Shown here one piece after another: positions 3,745-40,392 of a stretch of 64,000 nucleotides of DNA. Positions within the stretch are counted from its first letter, which is position 1. Each line of letters begins with the position of its first letter. Under the pieces are notes generated by a model. The model did not search any database and was not told where the DNA came from. It saw nothing but the letters and a program-made list of their open reading frames with translations. Source of the DNA: Alphaproteobacteria bacterium. GTDB lineage: Bacteria > Pseudomonadota > Alphaproteobacteria > JAAXGF01. Position numbers and translations under genes: made by a program. The stretch is taken from positions 992,001-1,056,000 of the forward strand of contig CAUVXB020000002.1 in the NCBI GenBank assembly GCA_963555825.3, written 5' to 3'.

Positions 3745-4972
3745 TTAGACACCCTTCCCTTTAGAATGAAGAATCTCGCCAAGGATATCGCTAAAACCGG
3801 TGAACTGTTCGTGTTACCTATGGTGGGATCGAAAGAGAACGGCACCCACATCGTTTTTGACGGCAACCGCCGAGTGACATGTCTCAAGTTGCTAAATAAA
3901 CCTCATCATGCCCCGACAGAGGAATGGCAAGAGTTCTTCTCGAAAACGGCCAAGGGCTCGGAAGTTCCCCTTCCCCTGAAAATTGACTGTCAAATCGCAA
4001 CGGACCAGGACTGGATCGATAACTACCTCTATCGAATTCATACTGGCAGCCAAGACGGTGTTGGACAAATTAACTGGGGTAACCCGTCGAAAGCGCGTTT
4101 CGTGGAAAGAACGGGGAAATCAACCAAACTCAACCTGCCGGGCATAATCGAAGAAAAACTTCGATCCGGGGAACTTATCGATGAAAATCTGAAATTCAAG
4201 CACACCAACCTGGAGCGACTTCTATCCTCGGAGGAATTTCGTTCCCGTGTCGGTATCTCATTGAGAACCAGGGAGATCGTGTTTATCCGAGATGTGGAAA
4301 AATCGTTGGCCGCCTTGGTTCGCGTCGTCGAGGACCTTGCGGCCGGCACGCTCAACTTGAACCACTTGTTGGTCAACAAAAAGAAACGGAAATACCTGAA
4401 CGACCTTGAGAAGGAGGGTGTTCTGCCAACGGCTCACGATGAACTTGAGAACACCATAGTTTCAAGACGGGGGAGATAATACCTGCCCCAGAATACAAGC
4501 CGCCTCCAACTCCGAGGCCGAAACCGAAAGAACGAAAATCCCTAATTCGCGTGGAGGATGGTGTCAACCTCACATCACAGGCTCATACCAAAAGAGCCAT
4601 GGATATTTGGGGAGAACTTCAGCACTACCTCGAATTCGGAAAACACGACAATGCCATCGCCGTGCTGTTTCGGGTGTGTCTAGAATTCGCGGCGGAGAAC
4701 TACATCACCCGCCAATCGGTCTCTGGCGTTCACAACAACGACAAATTGGCAATGAAGTTTCGCAAAGCCTTGGATCATATGCTGGCGGCAAGGATGATTG
4801 AGAAGAAGTATCACGAGGGGTTGAAGAAATTTGAGAACACAGAGCCGATTCTGTCCGCCAACACGATGAACACGTATGTTCATCACAAAGATTTTTTCCC
4901 TTCAGACCATCATCTCAAGTCAATGTGGGATACCCTTTCAAATTTCATCGTGATCTGTTTGAAGGCATAAAC

Positions 4973-15624: not shown

Positions 15625-16323
15625 ATGCGCGTGATGATCACCCGACCCCGCGAGGACGCCCGGCCGCTCGCCGAGGCGCTCGCGGCGCGCGGCGTCGAGG
15701 CGCTGATCGAACCGCTGCTCGAGATCGTGCCCGTGCCCGGCGCGCAGCTCGACCTCGCCGGCGTCCAGGCGGTGTTGCTGACCAGCGCCAACGGTGCGCG
15801 CGCGCTGACCGCCGCGACCGGGGCGCGCGACGTCACGGTGCTCGCGGTCGGCGCGGCGACGGCGACGGCGGCGGTGGGCTTCGCGCGCGTCGAGGCGGCC
15901 GGCGGCGACGTCGCCGCCTTGGCCGATCTCGCCGCGAGCGTATGCGACCCGGCCGCCGGCCCGTTGGTCCACGTCGCGGGCAGCCATGTCGCCGGCGACC
16001 TGGCCGGCCGGCTGACCGAGCGCGGCTTCACGCTGCGTCGCGAAACGCTTTACACGGCCGAGCGTGCCGCGGCGTTGAGCGATGCCGCGGTGGCGGCGCT
16101 GCGCCAGGGCGCCCTCGACGCGGTGCTCTTATTTTCTCCCCGCACCGCGGGCAGCTTTGTTACGCTGGTGGCGCGGGCCGGCGTGACGGCGGACCTCGCG
16201 CGCGTCCGGGCGCTGTGCCTGAGCGTGGCGGTCGCCGAGGCGGCGGGAACGGTGGCGTGGCGCGCGCTCGACGTCGCGGTGCGACCCGACCAGGAGGCGC
16301 TGCTCGCGCTCGTCGCCGGCTAG
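15625..16323 (+). CDS. hemD: Uroporphyrinogen-III synthase
   Basis: ITRP, LTSANG, AVGAATA, FSPRTA; follows hemC. Confidence 0.92.
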   Translation: MRVMITRPREDARPLAEALAARGVEALIEPLLEIVPVPGAQLDLAGVQAVLLTSANGARALTAATGARDVTVLAVGAATATAAVGFARVEAAGGDVAALADLAASVCDPAAGPLVHVAGSHVAGDLAGRLTERGFTLRRETLYTAERAAALSDAAVAALRQGALDAVLLFSPRTAGSFVTLVARAGVTADLARVRALCLSVAVAEAAGTVAWRALDVAVRPDQEALLALVAG

Positions 16324-18892: not shown

Positions 18893-18904
18893 CTTGGCGC
18901 CCGT

Positions 18905-18979
<75 letters not shown>

Positions 18980-19335
18980 TATTTTTCAATAGGTTACGTG
19001 AATCTCTTCTTCACCATCTTTTGACCGAGTGACCTTAAAGTGAGCTGACTATTTCACTTCACAGGTCGCTCACATACTCATTTTGTCGACCGGCTCGGGC
19101 GGCTCCTTCCGAACGAAATTGTGATTTGGCAGGCTGTGTTGCGCCTGATCACCAAGACCAAACGCGTGCCTTACTCAGTTATCCAAGGGGGTAGCGTATG
19201 GGCCACCCGGGGGTCTATGGATACGTTTGTATGAACCGCGCTACGAGATCAATTATTTGGTTGGTACCATTGATCGGTCAAATTCGACGAATTCTCGGAC
19301 ATTGACGTTTAGTTTTCCGGCTGCCTCATTCCGAG

Positions 19336-19457
19336 GTCCGCTTTCGAGCGGTATGCCGACATGGAATGCCTTGTCCCGCGATCCAGTGTCTCTGAGGTCT
19401 GCTTACGAGTGGAAACCGGACATTGCAGCGTGGTTCGTCTAACGTCAGCTTCTAGCC
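19336..19457. repeat. Palindromic repeat array, block 1 (R1, R2, left half of R3)
   Basis: gtccgctttcgagcggtatgccgac 19336-19360; gtctgcttacgagtggaaaccggac 19397-19421; gtcagcttctagcc 19444-19457. Confidence 0.8.
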
Positions 19458-21037
19458 GAGGGTGTTGAAGAAGTTGTTCGATCGGTCGGGGTTGCTGTGA
19501 TTCCCTGCTTGTGATGATTTGAGCAGGGGATCGAAGCGATGATGGGCGAACCTGTTGGTCGACAAGACCGTCTATTCTATGCGTTCGATCTCGAGGCTAT
19601 GGTACCGGCCGATCATTTGTTGCGCCGGATCGATGCGGCTTTGGACCTGAGCTGGCTGCGCGGCGAGCTGAAGACCCATTACAGTCACCTGGGCTGCCCG
19701 TCGGTCTGTCCCGAGCTGATGGTCCGGATGCTGATTGTTGGCTACTGCCATTCGATCCGTTCGGAGCGGCGGCTGTGCCAGGAGGTGAAGGTGAACCTGG
19801 CGTACCGCTGGTTCTGCGGCTTAGGCTTGGAGGACAAGGTTCCCAACCATTCGACGTTTTCGGTGAACCGGCACGGCCGGTTCCGCGCGAGCGATCTGCT
19901 GCGCAAGGTCTTCGAGGATGTCGTGCGGCGCTGCATGACGGCGGGTCTGGTCGGTGGCGAGGGCTTTGCCGGGGACGCCTCGGTGATCGAGGCCAATGCC
20001 AGCCGTTATCAGCGCATCGAGGGCTCGGAGGTCGATTGGACGGCCGAGCAGCGAGCCAGTCGCCCGGTGAGTGAGTACCTGGCCGCGCTGGAGAGCGAGA
20101 ACCCGCCGACCGACCCCGTGCGCGAGCCCAAGGCGATGTCGCCGAGCGACCCCGCGGCGGCCTGGACGACGCGTGGGCGCGCCAAGGTGATGTTCGGCTA
20201 CAGCCTCAACTATCTGATCGACACCGGCCACGCCGTCATCGTCGATGTCGAGGCGACGCCGACGCGCATCTCGAAAGAAGTCGTGGCCACCGAGACGATG
20301 ATCGAGCGCACGCAAGAGCGCTTCGCGCTCAAGCCCGAGCGCCTGGCCGGCGATGTCGCCTATGGCACGGGCGAGATGCTCGGCTGGCTTCTCGACCATG
20401 ACATCGCGCCGCACATCCCGGTCTGGGACAAGAGCGAACGCGACGATGGCATCTTCTCACGGGCCGACTTCATCTACGACGAGGCGCGCGACCGCTACAT
20501 CTGTCCCGGCGGCAAGGCCTTGACGACCACCGGCAATCTCCACTCCGACAACACCTATCGCTATCGCGCCAGCAAGCGTGATTGCGACGCCTGCGCGCTG
20601 AAGCCGAGATGCTGTCCCGACACAGCGGCGCGCCGGGTCCCGCGCGAGGTGAACGAGGCGGCTCGTGACCACACCCGCGCCTTGATGGAGACCGAGGCTT
20701 ACGCGGCGTCGCGCACGGAACGTAAGAAGATCGAAAGGCTCTTCGGCGAGGCCAAGCACATTCTCTCGATGGTTCGCCTGCGATTGCGGGGCCTGACCGG
20801 CGCCCGCGACGAGTTCCTGCTGACCGCCACCGTCCAGAACCTGAGACGCCTCGTCAATCACACCACGAGACCGCCACCACGGCCCATGATGGCTTGATCC
20901 ATGCCGCAAAGCCTCATCCAACCAAGCCATAGGCGCAAAACCGCCTCGGCAGCGCGCCAAGGCGGAAACGAAAACATTTGCTGCTTCTATAAGCCGACAC
21001 CGGAACGCCGTTCCGATACGACTTCTTCAACACCCTC
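19458..21037 (+). mobile_element. IS1182-family insertion sequence (type 1)
   Basis: Perfect 17-bp IRs gagggtgttgaagaagt / acttcttcaacaccctc around a single transposase. Confidence 0.9.
19539..20897 (+). CDS. IS1182-family transposase
   Basis: VPADHLLRRID, SERRLCQEV..NLAYRWFCG, HSTFS..R, IERLFGEAK, TVQNLRRL. Confidence 0.92.
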   Translation: MMGEPVGRQDRLFYAFDLEAMVPADHLLRRIDAALDLSWLRGELKTHYSHLGCPSVCPELMVRMLIVGYCHSIRSERRLCQEVKVNLAYRWFCGLGLEDKVPNHSTFSVNRHGRFRASDLLRKVFEDVVRRCMTAGLVGGEGFAGDASVIEANASRYQRIEGSEVDWTAEQRASRPVSEYLAALESENPPTDPVREPKAMSPSDPAAAWTTRGRAKVMFGYSLNYLIDTGHAVIVDVEATPTRISKEVVATETMIERTQERFALKPERLAGDVAYGTGEMLGWLLDHDIAPHIPVWDKSERDDGIFSRADFIYDEARDRYICPGGKALTTTGNLHSDNTYRYRASKRDCDACALKPRCCPDTAARRVPREVNEAARDHTRALMETEAYAASRTERKKIERLFGEAKHILSMVRLRLRGLTGARDEFLLTATVQNLRRLVNHTTRPPPRPMMA

Positions 21038-21040
21038 GGC

Positions 21041-21290
21041 TATGTGTGGACGGCCCCGGTTTGGCAAGGGTTGTTTTGACGGTGATGCAAGTTGGTCGGG
21101 TGCGGCTATGTGTTCGGCCTGTTTGCGCGATACGACGATCGCTGGCCCTAATGCGATCCGCGGATCGGGTCCCAACTAAACCCACGAGCTCAGTGGCTCC
21201 GTAGCCAAGACGGGTTTCTCCGATCCCCGGTGTTCGACCGGTCTTGCATTACCTCACGATCACCCTGCCAAAGGGTTTAAGGCGTCTGTC
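21041..21290 (-). ncRNA. Predicted bridge/seek RNA region of IS1111 copy 1
   Basis: 250-nt non-coding end 3' of the transposase, nested stems, short matches to target and ends (ggcta, tagcc, taatg); inferred from family knowledge, limits approximate. Confidence 0.6.
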
Positions 21291-22322
21291 TCAAGCGGCG
21301 GTGACTGCTGGCTGACGGTAGGTTCCACCGTTGGCGAGCAGCGCCCAGGCGGTTCGTGCGTTCTTGTTGGCCAGCGCCACGGCGGCGAGCTTGGTCGGTT
21401 TGCGCGCCATGAGATCGCCCAGCCAAGGGTTCTTCTCGAAGTTTGATCTTCGCCCGTGGCGTATCACCGTCATGGCGCCGGCGACGAGCAGCCACCGGAG
21501 GTAGTGGTCACCCGCCTTGGAGATGCGGCCGAGCCGCTGCTTGCCGCCGGTCGAGGTCTGTCTGGGCACCAGACCGATCCAAGCCGCCAGTTCACGCCCC
21601 GATCTGAACACCGAAGGGTCGGCGATCGAGGCCGCCAGCGCGCTCGCAGTGATTGGCCCGATGCCGGGTATGGTCGCCAGACGCTGGCTGACCTCGGTCG
21701 CTCGATGCCAGGCATGAATGCGCTGCTCGGTGGTGGTGATCTCACGCTCCAGCGATAACAACTGCCGCGCCAGTCCTTCCAGGCATGTTCGTGCCAATGG
21801 CGGGATGCGCTCATCGCCCTCATCAGCGATGACCGCGAGGAGTTCCTTCACCTGCGGCAGCCCGACCCGGGCGACGACCCCGAACTCCGCCATGTGCGCG
21901 CGGATCGCGTTGACCAGCATGGTCCGCTGCCGAACCAGGAGTTCGCGCGTCCGGTGGTCCATCAACACGCTCTGCTGCGCGGCCGTCTTGACCGCCACGA
22001 AACGCATCGATGGCCGCGTTACCGCTTCGCAGATCGCTTCGGCATCCGCCGCGTCGTTCTTGTTGCGCTTGACGTAGGGCTTCACGTAAGCCGCCGGCAT
22101 GATGCGCACCTCATGGCCAAGCGCCCCGAGTTCCCGCGCCCAATGGTGCGACGTCGCGCAGGCCTCGATACCGACCAGACAAGCCGGCTGCTTGCTGAAG
22201 AACGGCACAACCTGGCGGCGCCTCAGTTGCCGGCGGATCACGGTCTCGCCTGAGACATCGACCCCGTGAACCTGGAAAACGTTCTTCGCAAGATCAAGTC
22301 CGATCGTGTTAACCTCGGTCAT
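21291..22322 (-). CDS. IS110-family DEDD transposase / recombinase
   Basis: GLDLAK, GIEAC, KNDAADAEAI, IPGIG, GLVPRQTSTGGK, VALANKNAR. Confidence 0.96.
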   Translation of the reverse strand: MTEVNTIGLDLAKNVFQVHGVDVSGETVIRRQLRRRQVVPFFSKQPACLVGIEACATSHHWARELGALGHEVRIMPAAYVKPYVKRNKNDAADAEAICEAVTRPSMRFVAVKTAAQQSVLMDHRTRELLVRQRTMLVNAIRAHMAEFGVVARVGLPQVKELLAVIADEGDERIPPLARTCLEGLARQLLSLEREITTTEQRIHAWHRATEVSQRLATIPGIGPITASALAASIADPSVFRSGRELAAWIGLVPRQTSTGGKQRLGRISKAGDHYLRWLLVAGAMTVIRHGRRSNFEKNPWLGDLMARKPTKLAAVALANKNARTAWALLANGGTYRQPAVTAA

Positions 22323-22403
22323 AGGACGGCTCCTTTGTACGTGATCAGCCAACAGCTACCACTTCTGGCACCTAGATGCCGCGTGGGGCCGTCCACCCCA
22401 TTA

Positions 22404-22556
22404 TGAGCAGACATTAGGCTCGCTGCGCTGCGACGTCTGCTTTCCGCTCGGAAGCGGACGTGCATGTCATGAAAATTGGAAGCCGCACGTATTAGGTCCG
22501 GTTACCGCCCGAAAGCGGACGTCGCGCACCTACGTCGCTAATGTCTGCTGCTGACC
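22404..22556. repeat. Palindromic repeat array, block 2 (right half of R3, R4, R5, left half of R6)
   Basis: tgagcagac; gtctgctttccgctcggaagcggac 22435-22459; gtccggttaccgcccgaaagcggac 22496-22520; gtctgctgctgacc 22543-22556. Confidence 0.85.
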
Positions 22557-24238
22557 CAGCCTGTGTGAAAACGTCGATGGTGTTATGATTCTCTTGTGCT
22601 TTGGCGGGAGGGTCTGATGAAGCGTTTTGTGGAGGGTGTCGATCGCAGCCAGGGCACGTTGTTTCCCGAGCGCCTGGAAGACTGGATCGGCGAGGACACC
22701 CCGGTTCGGGCGATCGACGTCTTCGTCGATGAGCTCGATCTTGGGGGTCTCGGGTTCGACCGGGTCGCGCCGCTGGCGACCGGCAGGCCGGCCTATCATC
22801 CTTGCGATTTGTTGAAGCTCTACATCTACGGCTATCTCAACCGGGTTCAGTCGAGCCGTCGGCTCGAGAGGGAGGCCGGGCGCAATGTGGAAGTGATGTG
22901 GCTGGTCGGCCGGCTGGCGCCGGATCACAAGACGATCGCCGACTTCCGCAAGGACAACGGCTGCGATCCGCAAGGTCTGCGCCCGGTTCGTCGCCCTGTG
23001 CCGGCAACTGGGGCTGTTCGCCGAGGCGAGCGTGGCGATCGATGGCGCCAAGTTCAAGGCGGTCAACAGCCGGGACAGGAACTTCACGCGGGCCAAGATG
23101 GCGCGGCGGGTGGCGCAGATCGAGGAGAGCGTTGCACGCTATCTGCAGCAACTCGACAGCGCCGACCGGCAAGAGCCGTCGCTGGCGCGCACGACCAAGA
23201 CGACTCGTCTGGCCGACAAGATTGCGATCCTCAAGGAGGAGATGCGGCGCCTGAAGGCGCTTGAAGTCGAGAGGCGTGCGAGCCCGGACCAGCAGAGCTC
23301 TCTGAGCGATCCCGATGCCCGCTCGATGGCGACGAGCGGCCGGGGTTCCGGCGTGGTGGGCTACAACGTTCAGGCCGCCGTCGACACCAAGCATCACCTG
23401 ATCGTTGCCCACGAGGTGACCAATCAGGGCACCGACCGCGCCCAGCTCTCAGCCATGGCGAAGCGGACCAAGGCGGCTCTGGAGACCGACGAGTTGGATG
23501 TCGTTGCCGATCGCGGCTACTACAACGGCAAGGAGATTCTGGCCTGCGATGAGGCCGGCATCACCGTCACGTTGCCTAAGCCGCTGACCTCGGGAGCCAA
23601 GGCCAAGGGCCGCTTCGGCAAACAGGACTTCGTCTATCTGGCCGCCGACGATGTCTATCGCTGCCCGGCCGGCGAGCGTTTGGTCTACCGCTTCACCAGC
23701 CAGGAGAGTGGGCTGAGCATGCGGCGCTACTGGACCAACGCCTGTCAGGGATGCGCCATCAAGCATCGCTGCACCACGGCCAAGCAGCGCCGCATCACCC
23801 GTTGGCAGCACGAACACATTCTCGAGGCCGTCGAGAGGCGGCTCGACGAGCACCCGGAGGCGATGCGTCGGCGGCGCGAGACGGCCGAGCAACCCTTCGG
23901 CACCCTCAAGGCCTGGATGGGCGCGACGCACTTCCAGATGAAGACGCTGAAGCGGGTGAGGACCGAGATGGCCTTGCACGTGCTGGCCTACAATCTCAAG
24001 CGCGTCATGAACATCATGGGCATCGACCCGCTGATCGCGGCGATCAGGACGGCATAGCGCCCCTGCGCCGACAATTACGCCCATACCCGGCCACATCGCG
24101 GCTCACAACGGCGCCAGCCGGCCGAAAAGCCCGCACGAGCGGCGAAAATCCATAATCCCGGAAAACACGTCCCGACTGATCATCCAAACCCAAAGACGCG
24201 CCACACAGAAATAGCAGCAAACGTTCTCACACAAACTG
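22557..24238 (+). mobile_element. IS1182-family insertion sequence (type 2), copy 1
   Basis: IRs cagcctgtgtgaaaacgt / acgttctcacacaaactg, target duplication GACC (22553-22556, 24239-24242). Confidence 0.92.
22617..24057 (+). pseudogene. IS1182 transposase, frameshifted
   Basis: 2-nt deletion near 22961 (aacggctgcgatc versus aacggccgtgcgatc in copy 2) splits the ORF. Confidence 0.9.
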
Positions 24239-24242
24239 GACC

Positions 24243-24334
24243 CAAAGCGGACCTCTTCTTTCTCCAATTGGAGTGACTGCTTTTGACCCCGACGAGATGT
24301 ATCTGGTCCTGGCGGCTTTTCACGGGATCTAGAC
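24243..24334. repeat. Palindromic repeat array, block 3 (right half of R6, degenerate R7, possible further copy)
   Basis: caaagcggac 24243-24252; gactgcttttgaccccgacgagat 24275-24298; ggcggcttttcacgggatctagac 24311-24334. Confidence 0.6.
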
Positions 24335-24374
24335 ATTTATACAAGAGAAACTGGTCCGGTGCTATGATGGGCCC

Positions 24375-24995
24375 ATGTCACAGATCGAATCTCTTTTCGT
24401 CACCCGTCTCTACCGCTCTGCCCTGTCCGAGTTCTGCAAGGCGCCGGATGCGGCCGAGCTTGAAACCTCCTGCCTGTCGATTGCCGATGATGATAAGGCC
24501 GGGCAGGTATGGTGCGAGGAACATGATTATCCGGGTTATACCAGCTATGCCTCGCTGGACGATCTGGCTTGGCGGTTTCCGATCTTCAAGGATCTGGTCC
24601 CGGTGCTCGATAAACATGTCGCGACCTTTGTCAAGGACTTGCAATTCGATCTGGACGGCAAGAAGGTCAGGCTGAATAGTCTGTGGATCAACATCTTGCC
24701 CGAAGGCGGCGTGCATACGTCGCATTTGCATCCCCATAGCGTGATCAGCGGCACCGCCTATGTCACGGTGCCGAACGGCGCAAGTGCCATCAAGTTCGAA
24801 GACCCGCGGTCGGCAATGATGATGGCGGCACCGGAGCGCGAGGTCGAAGCACGGAACGAACTGCGCAAGTTCATCTATGTCGTGCCCCAGGCAGGCGAGG
24901 TTTTGCTTTGGGAAAGCTGGCTACGCCACGAAGTTCCTCAGAACAAGGCCGATGAGGAACGCATCAGCATCAGTTTCAATTATGGCTGGGAGTGA
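24375..24995 (+). CDS. TIGR02466-family putative 2OG-Fe(II) oxygenase
   Basis: YPGYTSYASL, WINIL...HTSHLHPHSVISGT, FEDPR, WESWLRHEV, RISISFN. Confidence 0.9.
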   Translation: MSQIESLFVTRLYRSALSEFCKAPDAAELETSCLSIADDDKAGQVWCEEHDYPGYTSYASLDDLAWRFPIFKDLVPVLDKHVATFVKDLQFDLDGKKVRLNSLWINILPEGGVHTSHLHPHSVISGTAYVTVPNGASAIKFEDPRSAMMMAAPEREVEARNELRKFIYVVPQAGEVLLWESWLRHEVPQNKADEERISISFNYGWE

Positions 24996-25030
24996 CGTGC
25001 CCGTGGAGGGTTGTCCCGTCCACACATGGC

Positions 25031-25282
25031 TATGTGTGGACGGCCCCGATTTGGCAAGGGTTGTTTTGACGGTCATGCAAGTTGGTCGGGTGCGGCTATG
25101 TGTCCGGCCTGTTGATGCGGTGCTCTTGACCGCTGGCCCTAATGCGATCCGCGGGATCGGGTCCCAACTAAACCCACGAGCTCAGTGGCTCCGTAGCCAA
25201 GACGGGTTTCTCCGATCCCCGGTGTTCGACCGGTCTTGCATTACCTCACGATCACCCTGCCAAAGGGTTTAAGGCGTCTGTC
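25031..25282 (-). ncRNA. Predicted bridge/seek RNA region of IS1111 copy 2
   Basis: Homologous to 21041-21290 with a compensatory stem change (gcggt...accgc versus gcgat...atcgc). Confidence 0.6.
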
Positions 25283-26314
25283 TCAAGCGGCGGTGACTGC
25301 TGGCTGACGGTAGGTTCCACCGTTGGCGAGCAGCGCCCAGGCGGTTCGTGCGTTCTTGTTGGCCAGCGCCACGGCGGCGAGCTTGGTCGGTTTGCGCGCC
25401 ATGAGATCGCCCAGCCAAGGGTTCTTCTCGAAGTTTGATCTTCGCCCGTGGCGTATCACCGTCATGGCGCCGGCGACGAGCAGCCACCGGAGGTAGTGGT
25501 CACCCGCCTTGGAGATGCGGCCGAGCCGCTGCTTGCCGCCGGTCGAGGTCTGTCTGGGCACCAGACCGATCCAAGCCGCCAGTTCACGCCCCGATCTGAA
25601 CACCGAAGGGTCGGCGATCGAGGCCGCCAGCGCGCTCGCAGTGATTGGCCCGATGCCGGGTATGGTCGCCAGACGCTGGCTGACCTCGGTCGCTCGATGC
25701 CAGGCATGAATGCGCTGCTCGGTGGTGGTGATCTCACGCTCCAGCGACAGCAACTGCCGCGCCAGTCCTTCCAGGCATGTTCGTGCCAATGGCGGGATGC
25801 GCTCATCGCCCTCATCAGCGATGACCGCGAGGAGTTCCTTCACCTGCGGCAGCCCGACCCGGGCGACGACCCCGAACTCCGCCATGTGCGCGCGGATCGC
25901 GTTGACCAGCATGGTCCGCTGCCGAACCAGGAGTTCGCGCGTCCGGTGGTCCATCAACACGCTCTGCTGCGCGGCCGTCTTGACCGCCACGAAACGCATC
26001 GATGGCCGCGTTACCGCTTCGCAGATCGCTTCGGCATCCGCCGCGTCGTTCTTGTTGCGCTTGACGTAGGGCTTCACGTAAGCCGCCGGCATGATGCGCA
26101 CCTCATGGCCAAGCGCCCCGAGTTCCCGCGCCCAATGGTGCGACGTCGCGCAGGCCTCGATACCGACCAGACAAGCCGGCTGCTTGCTGAAGAACGGCAC
26201 AACCTGGCGGCGCCTCAGTTGCCGGCGGATCACGGTCTCGCCTGAGACATCGACCCCGTGAACCTGGAAAACGTTCTTCGCAAGATCAAGTCCGATCGTG
26301 TTAACCTCGGTCAT
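25283..26314 (-). CDS. IS110-family DEDD transposase / recombinase
   Basis: Translation identical to 21291..22322. Confidence 0.96.
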   Translation of the reverse strand: MTEVNTIGLDLAKNVFQVHGVDVSGETVIRRQLRRRQVVPFFSKQPACLVGIEACATSHHWARELGALGHEVRIMPAAYVKPYVKRNKNDAADAEAICEAVTRPSMRFVAVKTAAQQSVLMDHRTRELLVRQRTMLVNAIRAHMAEFGVVARVGLPQVKELLAVIADEGDERIPPLARTCLEGLARQLLSLEREITTTEQRIHAWHRATEVSQRLATIPGIGPITASALAASIADPSVFRSGRELAAWIGLVPRQTSTGGKQRLGRISKAGDHYLRWLLVAGAMTVIRHGRRSNFEKNPWLGDLMARKPTKLAAVALANKNARTAWALLANGGTYRQPAVTAA

Positions 26315-26395
26315 AGGACGGCTCCTTTGTACGTGATCAGCCAACAGCTACCACTTCTGGCACCTAGATGCCGCGTGGGGCCGTCCACCCCATTA

Positions 26396-26548
26396 ATCCC
26401 GGAAATTAGAAAGGGCGGGCCGCAACGTCCGCTTTCCGCTCGTTAGCAGACCCTCGCGCCGAGGAATTCAGAAATCCGGCAGTCAATGTCTGGTTCGCGC
26501 GACAAAGCAGACGTTGGAGGCGACACCGTCTAACGTCTGCTGGTGACC
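26396..26548. repeat. Palindromic repeat array, block 4 (right half of R8, R9, R10, left half of R11)
   Basis: atcccggaa; gtccgctttccgctcgttagcagac 26427-26451; gtctggttcgcgcgacaaagcagac 26488-26512; gtctgctggtgacc 26535-26548; same 153-bp length as block 2. Confidence 0.85.
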
Positions 26549-28232
26549 CAGACTGTGTAAAAACGTCGATGGTGTTATGATTCTCTCGTGCTTTGGCGGG
26601 AGGGTCTGATGAAGCGTTTTGTCGAGGGTGTCGATCGCAGCCAGGGCACGTTGTTTCCGGAGCGCCTGGAAGACTGGATCGGCGACGACAACCCGGTTCG
26701 GGCGATCGACGTCTTCGTCGATGAGCTCGATCTTGGCGGCCTCGGGTTCGACCGGGTCGAGCCGCTGGCGACCGGCAGGCCGGCCTATCATCCTTGCGAT
26801 TTGTTGAAGCTCTACATCTACGGCTATCTCAACCGGGTTCAGTCGAGCCGTCGGCTCGAGAGGGAGGCCGGGCGCAATGTGGAAGTGATGTGGCTGGTCG
26901 GCCGGCTGGCGCCGGATCACAAGACGATCGCCGACTTCCGCAAGGACAACGGCCGTGCGATCCGCAAGGTCTGCGCCCGGTTCGTCGCGCTGTGCCGGCA
27001 ACTCGGGCTGTTCGCCGAGGCGAGCGTGGCGATCGATGGCTCGAAGTTCAAGGCGGTCAACAGCCGGGACAGGAACTTCACGCGGGCCAAGATGGCGCGG
27101 CGGGTGGCGCAGATCGAGGAGAGCGTTGCGCGCTATCTGGACCAGTTGGACAGCGCCGACCGGCAAGAGCCGTCGCTGGCGCGCACGACCAAGACGACTC
27201 GTCTGGCCGACAAGATCGCGATCCTCAAGGAGGAGATGCGGCGCCTGAAGGCGCTTGAAGTCGAGCGGCGTGCGAGCCCGGACCAGCAGATCTCTCTGAG
27301 CGATCCCGATGCCCGCTCGATGGCGACGAGCGGCCGGGGTTCCGGCGTGGTCGGCTACAACGTTCAGGCCGCCGTCGACACCAAGCACCACCTGATCGTC
27401 GCCCACGAGGTGACCAATCAGGGCACCGACCGCGCCCAGCTCTCAGCCATGGCGAAGCGGACCAAGGCGGCTCTGGAGACCGACGAGTTGGATGTCGTTG
27501 CCGATCGCGGCTACTACAACGGTAAGGAGATTCTGGCCTGCGATGAGGCCGGCATCACCGTCACATTGCCTAAGCCGCTGACCTCTGGAGCCAAGGCCAA
27601 GGGCCGCTTCGGCAAACAGGACTTCGTCTATCTGGCCGCCGACGATGTCTATCGCTGCCCGGCCGGCGAGCGTTTGGTCTACCGCTTCACCAGCCAGGAG
27701 AGGGGGCTGAGCATGCGGCGCTACTGGACCAACGCCTGTCAGGGATGCGCCATCAAGCATCGCTGCACCACGGCCAAGCAGCGCCGCATCACCCGCTGGC
27801 AGCACGAGCATGTTCTCGAGGCCGTCGAGAGGCGGCTCGACGAGCACCCGGAGGCGATGCGTCGGCGGCGCGAGACGGCCGAGCATCCCTTCGGCACCAT
27901 CAAGTCCTGGATGGGCGCGACGCATTTCCAGACGAAGACGCTGAAACGGGTGAGGACCGAGATGGCCCTGCACGTGCTGGCCTACAATCTCAAGCGCGTC
28001 ATGAACATCACGGGCATCGACCCGCTGATCGCGGCGATGAGGACCGCATAGGCCTCTCTGCGCCGCAAATTGCGCCCATATCCGGCCAAATCGCAGCTCA
28101 CACCGGCGCCAGCCGGCCGACAGGTCCGCACGAGTGGCGAAAATCCTTAATCCCGGAATACCCGCCGCGACGGATCATCGAAGCCAAAGACGCGCCGTAC
28201 AGATCACGCAGCAAACGTTCTTACACAGTCTG
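26549..28232 (+). mobile_element. IS1182-family insertion sequence (type 2), copy 2
   Basis: IRs cagactgtgtaaaaacgt / acgttcttacacagtctg, target duplication GACC (26545-26548, 28233-28236). Confidence 0.93.
26609..28051 (+). CDS. IS1182-family transposase, intact
   Basis: GRPAYHP, SSRRLERE, PDHKTIADFRK, GYNVQ, ADRGYY, EHPFGTIK, YNLKR. Confidence 0.95.
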   Translation: MKRFVEGVDRSQGTLFPERLEDWIGDDNPVRAIDVFVDELDLGGLGFDRVEPLATGRPAYHPCDLLKLYIYGYLNRVQSSRRLEREAGRNVEVMWLVGRLAPDHKTIADFRKDNGRAIRKVCARFVALCRQLGLFAEASVAIDGSKFKAVNSRDRNFTRAKMARRVAQIEESVARYLDQLDSADRQEPSLARTTKTTRLADKIAILKEEMRRLKALEVERRASPDQQISLSDPDARSMATSGRGSGVVGYNVQAAVDTKHHLIVAHEVTNQGTDRAQLSAMAKRTKAALETDELDVVADRGYYNGKEILACDEAGITVTLPKPLTSGAKAKGRFGKQDFVYLAADDVYRCPAGERLVYRFTSQERGLSMRRYWTNACQGCAIKHRCTTAKQRRITRWQHEHVLEAVERRLDEHPEAMRRRRETAEHPFGTIKSWMGATHFQTKTLKRVRTEMALHVLAYNLKRVMNITGIDPLIAAMRTA

Positions 28233-28261
28233 GACCCGAAGTCGACCTTGAGCAGGTCAAT

Positions 28262-28591
28262 TCAAACGCTTTGCATGGCGTTCACAATCGCCCTTGTCAG
28301 TGTCAGAAAGCGGCAGCAGACGTCGCCCTCAGGGTCCAGCCGCAAGACATCGGCCTTGAAAGCTTCTTGTTTGAGGCCGCCCCAAGCAACGACAGTGCCC
28401 TCGAGTGTTTCACCCGGGCGCACAGGGCGATGGAAGCCGCTGATCTGAAATCCGCCAATCGACCAGTCGGTGGTCTTGTAATTGTGATCCTCGAAGCGAA
28501 GTGTCAGCCGCGGCATCACGTGACGTGAATGTTGACGCTGCTCGCGCCCGCCGGGGAACTTTGGATTGCTCTTCTCCCGCCCCATCCCCAA
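28262..28591 (-). CDS. PilZ-domain protein (start uncertain)
   Basis: RQHSR (RxxxR) and DWSIGG (D/NxSxGG) c-di-GMP-binding motifs. Confidence 0.75.
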   Translation of the reverse strand: MGMGREKSNPKFPGGREQRQHSRHVMPRLTLRFEDHNYKTTDWSIGGFQISGFHRPVRPGETLEGTVVAWGGLKQEAFKADVLRLDPEGDVCCRFLTLTRAIVNAMQSV

Positions 28592-28634
28592 CTGCCTCTT
28601 TGCGGCTCATGTTGACCGAGAATCCTCAGATGAC

Positions 28635-39867: not shown

Positions 39868-40392
39868 AACGAGATGAGGGGCGGCGCGCCCGCGCCCGGC
39901 GCGGCGTGGCAATCCGACCAGACGTTGCACGAACACGACGCGTTCGGCGAGCTGGTCGCCTGCGTCGACGAGGCGGCGGCCGCCGCGCTCGCGTACTTGA
40001 AGATCGGCCACGACGGCTTCGCGATCACGGCGTGCTGGGCCAATGTCAACGCGCCGGGCGCCGGCCACGCCATGCACAGCCATCCCAACAACCTGCTGAG
40101 CGGCATCTACTACGTCACGACGCCGGACGGCGCCGACACGGTGAACTTCCACGACCCCAGGCCGCAGGCCGCCATCATACGGCCGCCGGTGACCGAGCTG
40201 ACCGCCGACAACACCGATCAGGTCGTCGTCCGGGTGAGCGCCGGCACGCTGCTCGTCTTCCCGGCCTGGCTGCAGCACTCCGTCGACCCCAACCGGAGCA
40301 GCGAGACGCGCATCAGCGTCAGTTTCAACGTCATGCTCGCGTCCTACGCCGAACAGATGAGCAAGCCGCTCTGGGAGCCCGGCCAGGCTTGA
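39739..40392 (+). CDS. TIGR02466-family putative 2OG-Fe(II) oxygenase
   Basis: WANVN...HAMHSHPNNLLSGIYY, FHDPRP, FPAWLQHSV, RISVSFN. Confidence 0.9.
   Translation: MAAREPSRFEESHPLRMFPTFVWRGEVAAQTRDPLNAGIVGALNEMRGGAPAPGAAWQSDQTLHEHDAFGELVACVDEAAAAALAYLKIGHDGFAITACWANVNAPGAGHAMHSHPNNLLSGIYYVTTPDGADTVNFHDPRPQAAIIRPPVTELTADNTDQVVVRVSAGTLLVFPAWLQHSVDPNRSSETRISVSFNVMLASYAEQMSKPLWEPGQA

What the first reader, a model, noticed from the sequence alone, without database searches (positions are those of the whole stretch)
19277..28250. Hidden ordered array of 24/25-bp palindromes with fixed-length unique spacers: candidate gene-cassette or recombination-site system
Seen: after removing five ISs, the DNA downstream of tRNA-Thr is an array of degenerate palindromes GTCyGCTt-n-aAGCrGAC starting at 19336, 19397, 19444*, 22435, 22496, 22543*, 24275, then a gene, then 25018*, 26427, 26488, 26535* (* = split by an IS). 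They recur as an A-B-C triplet: A and B are 25 bp, C is 24 bp. Start-to-start distances are exactly 61 and 47 in all three triplets and 46 after each C that is followed by another repeat. Spacers are therefore always 36 or 22 bp, yet their sequences are largely unrelated. Weaker copies lie at 19277 and 24311. With flanks each unit reads as 11-bp arm, 6 or 7-bp core, 11-bp arm. Established: that geometry is typical of tyrosine-recombinase core sites (dif, lox), whereas CRISPR repeats are near-identical and integron attC sites have RYYYAAC/GTTRRRY ends, absent here. Inference: a composite, phased site for an unknown recombinase or HUH enzyme that assembles accessory genes at this tRNA hotspot, or a processed small-RNA array. 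I recall similar palindromes beside accessory genes in other proteobacteria but know no named system explaining this periodicity. No cognate enzyme is visible in the window.
Basis: partly seen in the sequence, partly recalled or inferred. Interest (0 to 1): 0.88.

Follow-up and report, generated by a model that had tools for sequence, protein, structure and literature searches.

The report
Palindromic repeat cluster hit by ISs
Downstream of tRNA-Thr lies a cluster of copies of a genome-wide, REP/BIME-like palindromic repeat element, and five insertion sequences that aim at the centre of one of its palindromes have landed in it; this is a known kind of feature, although this repeat family seems undescribed.

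Summary
After removal of five ISs and one copy of each target duplication, start-to-start distances are exactly 61, 47, 46, 61, 47, 46 and 46, 61, 47. The cassette or recombinase reading is not supported.

The palindromes belong to a dispersed modular repeat found at 67 loci in this genome. The unit is C_L (24 bp, centre TGACCC), 22 bp, P (25 bp), 36 bp, P, 22 bp, C_R (24 bp, centre TAGCCA). The same modules and 22-bp linkers occur in another genus of the family, in another family of the class, and in many marine alphaproteobacterial MAGs.

The window's spacers are not unique. Each has diverged homologues elsewhere in the genome.

The ISs are two IS1182-family elements and one IS110-family element. 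They insert at the exact centre of the 24-bp C palindromes. Of 57 recognisable C sites, 40 are occupied. Targeting of palindromes by IS1182 and of REPs by IS110 elements is in print.

No RAYT, dif-like arms, Rfam family or recurrent recombinase is linked. What the repeat does and how it spreads remain inferred.

The parts
18905..18979 (+). tRNA-Thr (CGT). It is the neighbour of the cluster. No copy of its 3' end occurs elsewhere in the window.
   Evidence: ARAGORN; Rfam; repeat check
19336..19360 (.). P palindrome A1 (25 bp, core CGAGCGG), unit 1
19397..19421 (.). P palindrome B1 (25 bp), 36-bp spacer after A1
19444..19457 (.). Left part of C1 (GTCAGC TTC TAGCC). The right part is 22403-22412 (ATGAGCAGAC). 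Rejoined it gives a 24-bp C_R-type palindrome.
19458..21037 (+). IS1182-family element type A (1580 bp, ends GAGGGTGTTGAAGAAGT). Its transposase gene is 19539-20897. It is flanked by AGCC (19454-19457) and GGCT (21038-21041).
   Evidence: NF033551 401 bits; Pfam; ends
21042..22402 (-). IS110-family element copy 1 (1361 bp). Its transposase gene is 21291-22352 on the minus strand. It lies between GGCT and ATGAGCAGAC with no duplication; its limit is uncertain by 1 nt.
   Evidence: NF033542 340 bits
22435..22459 (.). P palindrome A2 (25 bp, core CCGCTCG: unit 2 is inverted relative to unit 1)
22496..22520 (.). P palindrome B2 (25 bp)
22543..22556 (.). Left part of C2 (GTCTGC TGC TGACC). The right part is 24243-24252 (CAAAGCGGAC). 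Rejoined it gives a C_L-type palindrome with centre TGACCC.
22557..24238 (+). IS1182-family element type B, copy 1 (CAG...CTG). The target duplication GACC is at 22553-22556 and 24239-24242. The transposase reading frame is broken into ORFs 22596-23264 and 23032-24057.
   Evidence: other copies carry CG after 22961 (table 4)
24275..24298 (.). C' (GACTGC TTT TGACCC CGA CGAGAT), a degenerate C_L-type palindrome 22 bp after C2
24375..24995 (+). Gene for a TIGR02466 / PF13759 putative 2OG-Fe(II) oxygenase. It is the only gene between repeat blocks.
25018..25031 (.). Left part of C'' (GTCCAC ACA TGGCT). The right part is 26395-26404 (AATCCCGGAA). Rejoined it gives a C_R-type palindrome in reverse orientation (TGGCTA).
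25032..26394 (-). IS110-family element copy 2 (1363 bp). Its transposase gene is 25283-26344 on the minus strand.
26427..26451 (.). P palindrome A3
26488..26512 (.). P palindrome B3
26535..26548 (.). Left part of C3 (GTCTGC TGG TGACC). The right part is 28237-28246 (CGAAGTCGAC).
26549..28232 (+). IS1182-family element type B, copy 2. Its transposase gene is 26588-28051. The duplication GACC is at 26545-26548 and 28233-28236.
   Evidence: NF033551 453 bits

Best explanation
The 'array' is a local cluster of three copies, plus one extra C palindrome, of a dispersed, modular, intergenic palindromic repeat of the REP/BIME kind. One unit is C_L (24 bp, loop TGACCC), 22 bp, P (25 bp), 36 bp, P, 22 bp, C_R (24 bp, loop TAGCCA). 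All modules share the arms GTCYGC/GCRGAC.

The fixed 61/47/46 phasing comes from the unit's own architecture. Neighbouring units abut through shared C palindromes. No spacer-acquiring or cassette-assembling process is needed. The 'unrelated' spacers belong to different, diverged subfamilies of the same unit.

The C palindromes are preferred landing sites for mobile DNA. Two IS1182-family elements, and a 160-bp MITE derived from one of them, integrate with a 4-bp staggered cut at the centre of the 24-bp palindrome (positions 11-14). An IS110-family element integrates at the same centre without duplication.

Shown: the anatomy, the copy numbers, the insertion points, the duplications, and the conservation in other taxa.

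Inferred: IS1182 transposases recognise the extruded hairpin or cruciform loop, as proposed for IS1272. The IS110 element finds the site through its guide RNA. The units spread as non-autonomous DNA through an enzyme not yet identified. Their cellular role is that of REP/BIME elements: phased protein binding on DNA, or 3'-end RNA hairpins.
For: (1) The geometry is exact after IS removal.

(2) The family is dispersed.
- The strict pattern has 23 genome matches, all 25 bp although centres of 8-12 nt were allowed. The reversed-pattern control has 0.
- Iterated nhmmer gives 115 hits merging into 67 loci.
- Of 22 neighbouring strict palindrome pairs within 120 bp, 13 have a spacer of exactly 36 bp, 2 have 35, and 3 are 25-mer, 22 bp, 24-mer.

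(3) Units are older than the ISs. Unit-to-unit identity is about 75-88%, while IS1182-B copies are 94-99.9% identical.

(4) C centres are features of the element.
- In another genus (G001) the unit is GTCCGC TTT GGGTCA AAA GCGGAC, 22 bp, GTCCGCTTTCGGGGGTAAAGCGGAC, 22 bp, GTCCGC TAA TAGCCA TAA GCGGAC.
- These units carry no IS, apart from one IS110-like end seen twice.

(5) IS targeting.
- 24 of 30 IS1182-B left ends lie in P, 22 bp, GTCYGCnnnTGACC.
- Variant duplications co-vary on both sides of the same copy: GAAC/GAAC, GTCC/GTCC, GGCT/GGCT.
- 10 of 11 IS1182-A or MITE copies lie in a C palindrome with a 4-bp RGCY flank.
- Of 77 P-to-C positions, 24 abut an IS1182-B end, 7 an IS1182-A/MITE end, 5 an IS110-like end and 4 another IS end. 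17 are intact and 20 degenerate.

(6) The same IS1182-B-type end sits in the same C_L centre in a genome of another family: G176 has P, 22 bp, GTCTGCTTTTGACC|CAGGCTGTGTAAAAACG.

(7) Breadth.
- 8 of 13 genomes of the family have strict matches.
- In a class sample, 16 of 400 other genomes have 3 or more matches, while the control never exceeds 2.
- At least 118 stretches in GTDB genomes hold P, 22 bp, C_R. In them the commonest neighbour distances are 46 (113 times) and 47 (86 times).

(8) Literature.
- REPs are IS hot spots (PMC1525189, abstract).
- IS1272 of the IS1182 family targets hairpins, and some IS1182 members target palindromes (PMC5678879 and PMC4923244, passages).
- IS110-family ISPpu9 sits in REPs (PMC12288879, abstract in listing).
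Against: - No mobilising enzyme was found. Y1_Tnp genes are not flanked by the palindromes.
- No target duplication of the unit itself is visible beyond the AT that extends each palindrome.
- No empty site could be aligned, because flanks of orthologous genes in G005/G010 share no DNA similarity.
- No test of transcription or protein binding was possible. The sequencing runs are contigs of the same IS-bearing genome.
- The flanks of the full IS1182-A copy in the window differ (AGCC vs GGCT), and so do 5 of the 10 MITE pairs. A simple 4-bp duplication does not predict this without later change or recombination.
- 6 of 30 IS1182-B left ends are not in the P, 22 bp, C context.
- The intergenic location was checked only with a crude GC3 gene caller on 46 kb of one other genome.
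Confidence: 0.8

Rival explanations
1. Recombination-site or gene-cassette system. The palindromes would be core sites (11-6/7-11) of an unknown tyrosine recombinase or HUH enzyme that inserts and shuffles accessory genes next to tRNA-Thr.
For: - With their AT/CG flanks the C palindromes measure 28 bp (11-6-11) and the P palindromes 29 bp.
- The arms are sequence-conserved across genera without compensatory change, as protein-binding sites would be.
- Units cluster in some regions. G001 contig C130 has 5 units in 11 kb, separated by one to three unrelated accessory-type genes.
- The gene at 24375-24995, flanked by C' and C'', was not found in the 12 other genomes of the family.
Against: - No recombinase is linked in the window.
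- No protein family of that kind recurs beside units in 118 loci. The top clusters are a histidine kinase, an amidase, an ABC ATPase, an SDR, TPR proteins, an AMP-binding enzyme and one DDE transposase.
- Y1_Tnp genes are not flanked by the sites.
- The genome's dif-like site, AAGCGCATAA-GATATA-TTATGAATAAT at C1:781741 near the GC-skew maximum, has unrelated arms.
- Most units stand alone in ordinary intergenic regions.
- No repeat of the tRNA 3' end marks an integrated island.
Confidence: 0.06
2. Structured RNA element. The units would be transcribed and act as 3'-end stabilisers, terminators or processed small RNAs made of three or four hairpins.
For: - Units lie close to gene ends in the other genus, for example 42, 62, 64 and 85 bp after stop codons.
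- The G001 unit folds well as RNA: -43.1 kcal/mol, z = -3.6, 0 of 200 shuffles as stable.
- Analogous three-palindrome REPs in Bradyrhizobium overlap 3' UTR small RNAs (PMC5082802, passages).
Against: - There is no Rfam match.
- The one variable arm position shows no covariation. In other species the pairs are CG 55, CA 16, TG 9, TA 3, giving 0.66 Watson-Crick pairs against 0.65 when shuffled.
- Both mismatch types occur, so no one strand is favoured.
- Units occur in both orientations relative to flanking genes, and also 9 and 40 bp upstream of start codons.
- The G000 unit folded as DNA is only marginally better than shuffles (z = -1.9).
Confidence: 0.1
3. The palindromes are IS-derived. They would be extended terminal repeats, footprints or solo ends of the IS1182 or IS110 elements.
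For: - GTCYGCnnnTGACC|CAG and CTG|GACCCnnnGCRGAC flank nearly every IS1182-B copy and look like long inverted repeats.
- The IS110 element's own ends (ATGTGTGGAC... and ...GTCCACCCCAT) resemble C half-sites.
Against: - Intact 24-bp C palindromes with the same centres stand at the same 22-bp distance from P without any IS, here (17 sites) and in G001.
- Flanks are 75-88% alike while the ISs are 94-99.9% alike.
- Variant central tetranucleotides are duplicated on both sides of a copy, which marks them as target DNA.
- P palindromes are never interrupted.
Confidence: 0.03

Closest known systems
REP sequences and BIMEs of Escherichia coli, including the IHF-binding RIP/RIB type (recalled; general points also in passages of PMC5082802 and PMC3733652)
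   Same: - Short imperfect palindromes in intergenic DNA, in tens to hundreds of copies.
- Palindromes are combined into mosaics with linkers of fixed length.
- Units sometimes occur in tandem clusters.
- They are targets for ISs.
- Here 17 of 22 real P-36-P linkers have an A/T-rich GAAWTT-like centre. This recalls the IHF site of the L linker; that comparison is from recall.
   Different: - The arm sequence differs (GTCYGC...GCRGAC).
- There are three module types, two of which have conserved 6-nt loops.
- There is no GTAG tag.
- No flanked RAYT gene exists.
- The copy number is lower (67 loci).
CGTC-tagged REP superfamily of Alphaproteobacteria (Di Nocera et al. 2013, PMC3733652; I read the abstract, sections 6, 11 and 14, and passages)
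   Same: - The hosts are alphaproteobacterial.
- Many copies begin (C/T)GTC.
- Elements are heterogeneous, with spacers that differ in sequence but keep their length.
- No dedicated transposase is known, and tyrosine transposase genes are not flanked by the repeats.
   Different: - The paper describes an unpaired tag, 8-9-bp stems starting with A/T pairs, 4-5-nt loops and a CCA tail.
- Here GTC pairs with GAC, the stems start G-C, the loops are 6-7 nt and there is no CCA tail.
- The family consensus figures were not available to me.
Br-REP1 of Bradyrhizobium japonicum (Hahn et al. 2016, PMC5082802, passages)
   Same: An alphaproteobacterial intergenic repeat made of three palindromes. The central one also occurs alone, and abundance differs strongly between relatives.
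   Different: The sequence is unrelated (CCGGAATCTCGAGATTCCGG). No fixed 22/36-bp phasing or IS targeting is described in the passages I read.
REP-targeting and hairpin-targeting ISs: ISPpu9/ISPpu10, ISPa11, ISRm19/22 (PMC1525189, abstract), IS1272 of the IS1182 family (PMC5678879 and PMC4923244, passages), guide-RNA-directed IS110/IS1111 elements (PMC11187229 and PMC11208160, abstracts in listing)
   Same: - IS1182-family and IS110-family elements sit at one defined position of a repeated palindrome.
- The repeat is a hot spot carrying several IS types.
   Different: - IS1272 is reported to delete the target stem-loop and make no duplication.
- Here the two IS1182-family elements keep the palindrome and duplicate 4 bp of its loop.
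- That outcome is the 'loop duplication' path drawn as a possibility in PMC5678879.
REPIN-RAYT systems (PMC5581495, abstract in listing; otherwise recalled)
   Same: - Palindromes are paired at fixed distance.
- Near-identical copies in one genome (G001) suggest recent spread.
- The G001 unit can fold into one long hairpin by pairing C_L with C_R.
   Different: The defining single-copy RAYT gene flanked by its REPs was looked for and not found.

Membership tests
REP/BIME-type extragenic palindromic repeats (generic kind) | Short (20-40 bp) imperfect palindromes present in many dispersed copies | tested here: met
   - 23 strict and 67 profile-defined loci.
- The reversed-pattern control has 0 matches in this genome.
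REP/BIME-type extragenic palindromic repeats (generic kind) | Location between genes | tested here: inconclusive
   - All canonical units in 46 kb of G001 lie between GC3-called genes.
- The gene caller is crude.
- G000 was not tested systematically.
REP/BIME-type extragenic palindromic repeats (generic kind) | Mosaic organisation with linkers of fixed length | tested here: met
   36-bp and 22-bp linkers. In 118 loci of other species, neighbour distances of 46 and 47 occur 113 and 86 times.
REPIN-RAYT system | A Y1 (IS200-like) transposase gene flanked by the REPs | tested here: not met
   - Three PF01797 loci in G000 have no palindrome within 1.5 kb and no unit within 20 kb.
- The same holds for four loci in G001, G176 and G362.
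- None was found in G234 (71% complete) or G111 (92% complete).
REPIN-RAYT system | Conserved 5' GTAG tetranucleotide | tested here: not met
   Copies begin (A/C/T)(C/T)GTCYGC.
CGTC-tagged REPs (Di Nocera 2013) | Terminal CGTC/TGTC motif not involved in pairing, 8-9-bp stem starting with A/T pairs, 4-5-nt loop, CCA tail | tested here: inconclusive
   - The (C/T)GTC start is present, but it pairs with GAC(G/A).
- Stems start G-C, loops are 6-7 nt and there is no CCA tail.
- The criteria come from the text of PMC3733652 section 6. The consensus figure was not seen.
CRISPR array | Near-identical direct repeats with unique spacers | tested here: not met
   - The repeats are degenerate palindromes of three types.
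- The spacers have homologues at other loci.
- cas genes were not searched for.
Integron attC cassette array | RYYYAAC / GTTRRRY ends and an adjacent intI | tested here: not met
   - The ends are GTCYGC/GCRGAC.
- intI was not searched for genome-wide.
dif / Xer sites (pdif-like modules) | 11-6-11 site whose arms resemble the host's dif | tested here: not met
   - The geometry fits the C palindromes.
- The dif-like site found on contig C1 has unrelated, A/T-rich arms.
- The dif motif used for that search was recalled.
MITE | Terminal inverted repeats matching an autonomous IS, plus a target duplication | tested here: inconclusive
   - No parent IS with these ends and no duplication beyond AT was seen.
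- Empty sites could not be aligned.
IS1182 family (the two DDE elements) | Transposase scoring above the NCBIfam equivalog cut-off | tested here: met
   NF033551 scores 401 and 453 bits against a cut-off of 270.
IS110 family (the DEDD element) | Transposase scoring above the NCBIfam equivalog cut-off, with no target duplication | tested here: met
   NF033542 scores 340 bits against a cut-off of 140. The junctions rejoin to an intact C without duplication.

The most novel reading that the evidence does not exclude
The module set is kept by selection as a functional DNA device, not as selfish debris. It comprises identical 6-bp arms, two 'docking' palindromes with loops conserved across families, strictly 22-bp linkers, and a 36-bp linker with an A/T-rich centre.

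One version is a phased binding array for an unknown host protein that also steers IS1182 and IS110 elements into harmless sites, acting as a genomic IS sink. The other version is a set of core sites of an unrecognised recombination system that exchanges the DNA between units.

In both versions, length-conserved but sequence-free spacers and non-covarying arms are expected.
Probability: 0.12. Interest if true: 0.75.

Novelty: new member of a known kind. Interest (0 to 1): 0.4.

Why it matters
It explains a stretch that is about 79% IS DNA: 7682 of the 9701 bases from 18900 to 28600. It also gives exact IS limits and target duplications for annotation.

It defines a repeat family with a conserved modular grammar. 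The family is shared by a cultured-size 6-Mb genome and many marine alphaproteobacterial MAGs, where such repeats break assemblies.

It offers a natural test bed for how IS1182-family transposases choose palindromes. In this genome 24 of 30 copies of one IS sit in one 4-bp loop position, in one orientation.

If the repeat proves to be host-maintained, it would bear on how genomes confine IS damage.

Tried and rejected
- **Variable-gap pattern:** rejected by the DNA search. I used regular expressions and fixed-gap patterns instead.
- **BLAST of one unit against 41 relatives:** found almost nothing. The pattern search then showed that the family is there.
- **Empty-site comparison:**
  - Orthologues of two unit-flanked G001 genes in G005 and G010 (79-91% identical) have no units nearby.
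  - Their flanks share no DNA similarity, so neither unit borders nor a duplication could be read.
- **Replichore bias of unit orientation:** the relaxed palindrome list was swamped by chance hits and the GC skew is irregular, so I dropped it.
- **Relaxed scan for IS110 ends:** mostly noise. I read only the clear copies by eye.
- **Sequencing runs:**
  - 20 of 24 listed rows hold 24243-25031 or part of it.
  - The four runs laid are Logan contigs that break at the ISs. One 788-nt contig of X19 bridges the IS1182-A left junction.
  - No listed joint skips a whole IS and no empty site appeared.
  - The RNA run X6 gave no listed contig over A1-B1.
  - None of this says anything about transcription.
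- **Sequence-string paper search:** gave only unrelated primer hits.
- **Rfam:** gave nothing for the window region or for intact units.
- **Neighbourhood clustering of ORFs in 118 loci:** gave no candidate enzyme. One search failed on a strand-coordinate slip of mine and was corrected.
- **Not done:** supplementary files and figures of the papers were not read. The consensus figure of PMC3733652 may bear on whether this family was already catalogued.

Full report
**1. Observation**

The window holds tRNA-Thr at 18905-18979. The pattern GTCYGCT-N11-AGCRGAC with up to 2 mismatches matches 8 times in the 64-kb window. Shuffles give 1.41 on average, and 0 of 100 reach 8. The other two lie inside the two copies of one IS.

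I set the IS limits from the other genomic copies and from the target duplications. I then removed 19458-21041, 21042-22402, 22557-24242, 25032-26394 and 26549-28236. This leaves 2019 of 9701 bases.

The removal rebuilds four 24-bp palindromes from their halves. Start-to-start distances become 61, 47, 46, 61, 47, 46, and after the gene 46, 61, 47.

The two 'weaker copies' are off register and poorly matched. 19277 lies 59 bp before A1 and 24311 lies 36 bp after C'. I do not count them.

**2. The insertion sequences**

- The element at 19458-21037 and the two at 22557-24238 and 26549-28232 all encode IS1182-family transposases. NF033551 scores 401 and 453 bits against a cut-off of 270. Their ends differ, so I call them types A and B.
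- The two elements at 21042-22402 and 25032-26394 encode IS110-family transposases. NF033542 scores 340 bits.
- Type B runs from CAG to CTG and duplicates 4 bp, usually GACC.
  - Where the left flank carries a variant (GAAC, GTCC, GGCT), the right flank of the same copy carries the same variant. These bases are therefore target DNA, not IS.
- Type A has one full copy, the one in the window, and ten copies of a roughly 160-bp miniature.
  - Ten of these eleven lie in a C palindrome, flanked by 4-bp RGCY words.
  - The two flanks are identical in five of the eleven (four in C palindromes, plus the CTAG pair). They differ by one or two transitions in six, the window copy included.
- The IS110 element joins GGCT to ATGA with no duplication.
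- All three types sit at positions 11-14 of the 24-bp palindrome.

**3. The repeat family in this genome**

- The strict pattern occurs 23 times. Every match is 25 bp, although centres of 8-12 nt were allowed. The pattern read backwards occurs 0 times.
- An nhmmer profile started from an intact unit and iterated four times gives 115 hits on both strands, merging into 67 loci.
- Alignment of these hits shows one architecture:
  - two 25-bp P palindromes with an oriented core (CGAGCGG or its complement), 36 bp apart;
  - a 24-bp C palindrome 22 bp away on each side.
- Read outward from P, the C on one side has the centre TGACCC (C_L). The C on the other side has TAGCCA (C_R).
- Among strict palindromes, 13 of 22 neighbour pairs within 120 bp have a gap of exactly 36 bp, and 2 have 35.
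- The window cluster is unit 1 (forward), then unit 2 (inverted, sharing C1), then a lone degenerate C_L, then the gene, then unit 3 (inverted).

**4. The spacers**

- Within the window the three 36-bp spacers are unrelated to each other.
- Each has relatives elsewhere in the genome, at 25-32 of 36 identical positions.
- Random pairs of such spacers average 11.2 of 36, barely above the 10.2 expected from composition. Length is therefore conserved far better than sequence.
- Of 33 contexts returned by a relaxed scan, I judge 22 real by eye and dropped the other 11 rows, which look like GC-rich coding sequence. Seventeen of the 22 carry an A/T-rich GAAWTT-like patch in the middle of the spacer.

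**5. IS occupancy**

I could place 77 P-to-C positions in register:

| What lies at the C position | Count |
|---|---|
| IS1182-B end | 24 |
| IS1182-A or MITE end | 7 |
| IS110-like end | 5 |
| End of two further IS types | 4 |
| Intact C | 17 |
| Degenerate or absent C | 20 |

So 40 of 57 recognisable C sites are occupied. Seen from the IS side, 24 of 30 IS1182-B left ends lie in the P, 22 bp, C_L context, always with the left end towards P.

Units are 75-88% alike, while IS1182-B copies are 94-99.9% alike. The units are therefore the older layer.

**6. Other genomes**

- The genus is represented by this genome alone, and the order equals one family of 13 genomes. Eight of them hold the strict pattern, one with 40 matches. 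The control pattern matches in 1 of 13.
- In that genome (G001, another genus) the canonical unit has a single P. It reads GTCCGC TTT GGGTCA AAA GCGGAC, 22 bp, GTCCGCTTTCGGGGGTAAAGCGGAC, 22 bp, GTCCGC TAA TAGCCA TAA GCGGAC.
  - Its linkers are conserved within the genome, and its units carry almost no IS.
  - The loop words of C_L and C_R are therefore features of the repeat, conserved between genera.
- In a sample of 400 other genomes of the class, 39 have at least one match.
  - Single matches are at the level of the control, which reaches 2 at most.
  - Sixteen genomes have 3 to 72 matches.
  - Most are from MAGs labelled Rhodospirillales, Rhodospirillaceae, Thalassospiraceae, MarineAlpha3 or Alphaproteobacteria.
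  - A few have unrelated labels that may be chance or binning.
- In these loci the neighbour distances of relaxed palindromes peak at 46 (113 times) and 47 (86 times); the next most frequent is 40 (5 times).
  - Each locus was chosen for one such distance, so part of this peak is circular.
  - The C_L-46-P arrangement was not selected for, and complete C_L-46-P-47-C_R chains occur 27 times.
- In G176, a genome of another family, one locus has P, 22 bp, GTCTGCTTTTGACC followed directly by CAGGCTGTGTAAAAACG. That is the IS1182-B type of end in the same position.
  - Another G176 locus has P, 35 bp, P, 21 bp, and an intact C_L.
- IS1182-family and IS110-family transposase matches were found in 4 of 5 palindrome-rich genomes. 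In G001 all of these matches score below the family cut-offs. The fifth genome (12 strict palindromes, 92% complete) showed neither family.

**7. What it is not**

- **RAYT:** three PF01797 loci in this genome and four in three other palindrome-rich genomes have no such palindromes beside them.
- **dif:** a dif-like site on contig C1 lies close to the GC-skew maximum and has unrelated arms.
- **Known RNA family:** none is found for the window region or for intact units.
- **Structure-driven evolution:** the only variable arm position (Y at 4, R at 22) assorts independently.
  - In other species the pairs are CG 55, CA 16, TG 9 and TA 3.
  - That gives 0.66 Watson-Crick pairs against 0.65 after shuffling.
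  - Both changes are C-to-T transitions at a CpG on one strand or the other.
- **IS-derived sequence:** excluded by the evidence in parts 5 and 6.
- **Integrated island:** no second copy of the tRNA 3' end occurs in the window.
- **Linked enzyme:** clustering all ORFs of 120 aa or more from the 118 loci gave no recurrent recombinase.
  - The largest cluster occurs in 11 loci and its longest member is a hybrid histidine kinase.
  - One DDE_Tnp_1_4 transposase cluster occurs in 4 loci.

**8. The gene between blocks**

The gene at 24375-24995 encodes a TIGR02466 / PF13759 putative 2OG-Fe(II) oxygenase. It was not found in the 12 other genomes of the family at E <= 1e-20. It has a 36%-identical paralogue 15.5 kb further on. 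It may well be accessory, but one gene is not a cassette array.

In G001, units separate groups of one to three unrelated genes: glyoxalase, PhyH, TPR, radical SAM, an aminotransferase fragment, MFS and ChaC. Both a REP-like habit and a cassette-like one would produce this pattern. I picked those contigs because they had several hits.

**9. Mechanism**

Shown:
- ISs of two transposase families enter one 4-bp position of one class of palindrome.
- IS1182-B does so in one orientation.
- The same pairing of IS and site exists in another family of bacteria.

Inferred from the literature:
- IS1182-family transposases recognise palindromic or hairpin targets. IS1272 inserts into stem-loops, and the authors drew loop duplication as one possible outcome (PMC5678879 and PMC4923244, passages).
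- IS110/IS1111 elements select sites through an encoded guide RNA and often sit in REPs (PMC11187229, PMC11208160 and PMC12288879, abstracts in the search listing; PMC1525189, abstract).

Two points about this IS110 element come directly from the sequence:
- Its 249-bp non-coding stretch lies 3' of the transposase gene.
- Its ends are inverted repeats that resemble C half-sites.

How the units multiply is unknown. The near-identical G001 copies argue for recent copying. The lack of a flanked RAYT matches what Di Nocera and colleagues report for the CGTC REPs of Alphaproteobacteria (PMC3733652, sections 6 and 16-17 as passages).

**10. Verdict**

The thing observed is a REP/BIME-like mosaic repeat that serves as an IS hot spot. 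This kind of system is known. Its closest printed relatives are:
- E. coli BIMEs (recalled);
- the CGTC REPs, whose text criteria on stem, loop and tail it does not meet;
- Br-REP1, the three-palindrome REP of Bradyrhizobium (PMC5082802).

I found no description of this arm sequence or module grammar in four searches. Figures and supplements were not seen. I rate it a new member of a known kind, with moderate interest.

The strict length-but-not-sequence conservation of the linkers and the cross-family conservation of the two loop words are the features no current account fully explains.

Noticed in passing
window 22557-24238: IS1182-B copy 1 has a broken transposase frame (ORFs 22596-23264 and 23032-24057). 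Contigs of other copies carry two extra bases (CG) after 22961.
   Followed up: partly
G000 C1:2233564-2233725; C2:272838-272999, 967309-967470, 2180358-2180519, 2407731-2407891, 2645273-2645433, 3447643-3447803, 3467217-3467377, 3492418-3492579, 16144-16305: There are ten copies of a roughly 160-bp miniature element with the ends of IS1182-A. Nine lie in C palindromes and one lies in a CTAG site. In five of them the two 4-bp flanks differ by one or two transitions (e.g. GGCC/GGCT, and GGCT/AGCC), which a plain duplication does not predict.
   Followed up: partly
window 21042-21290 and G000 C1:169594-170053, C1:2233824-2233958, C2:2098765-2099393, C2:1402804-1403007: The non-coding end of the IS110-family element recurs elsewhere as tandem repeats of about 66-135 bp, next to more distant copies of the element (about 77% identity).
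   Followed up: no
window 25018-25043: The left junction of IS110 copy 2 reads GTCCACACATGGCT|ATGTGTGGAC. It is itself a perfect palindrome, because the IS end mimics a C half-site. The ends of the element (ATGTGTGGACGGCCCC / GGGGCCGTCCACCCCAT) are inverted repeats.
   Followed up: partly
G000 C1:~781741 (minus strand): There is a dif-like site, AAGCGCATAA-GATATA-TTATGAATAAT, about 20 kb from the cumulative GC-skew maximum of contig C1. No such site was found on C2 with the same motif.
   Followed up: no
palindrome arms, position 4 and its partner, all genomes: The Y/R variation in the arms consists of C-to-T transitions at a CpG on either strand, and it is uncorrelated between arms. This may point to cytosine methylation and deamination at CCGC/GCGG.
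   Followed up: no
G000, 36-bp linkers of P-36-P pairs (e.g. window 22460-22495, 26452-26487): Most linkers carry a central A/T-rich GAAWTT-like patch in a 65% G+C genome. The subfamily of window unit 1 (19361-19396) lacks it.
   Followed up: partly
G000 C1:28219 and C1:30661 region; C2:1503364 and C2:3498731 region: Two further IS types abut C palindromes at the same central position. Their ends read TAATTCTGTTGAAAAACT... and TGAGGCGTTTGCTGTCAAGG....
   Followed up: no
window ~39928-40329: A 36%-identical paralogue of the TIGR02466 gene lies 15.5 kb downstream of the cluster.
   Followed up: no
L025:~4500-4540 and L029:~70-110 (G001): In the other genus an IS110-like end (...CCGTCCACAGCA) abuts TCAGAAGCGGAC. 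It therefore sits in the centre of a C_L palindrome next to a P, as in this genome.
   Followed up: partly
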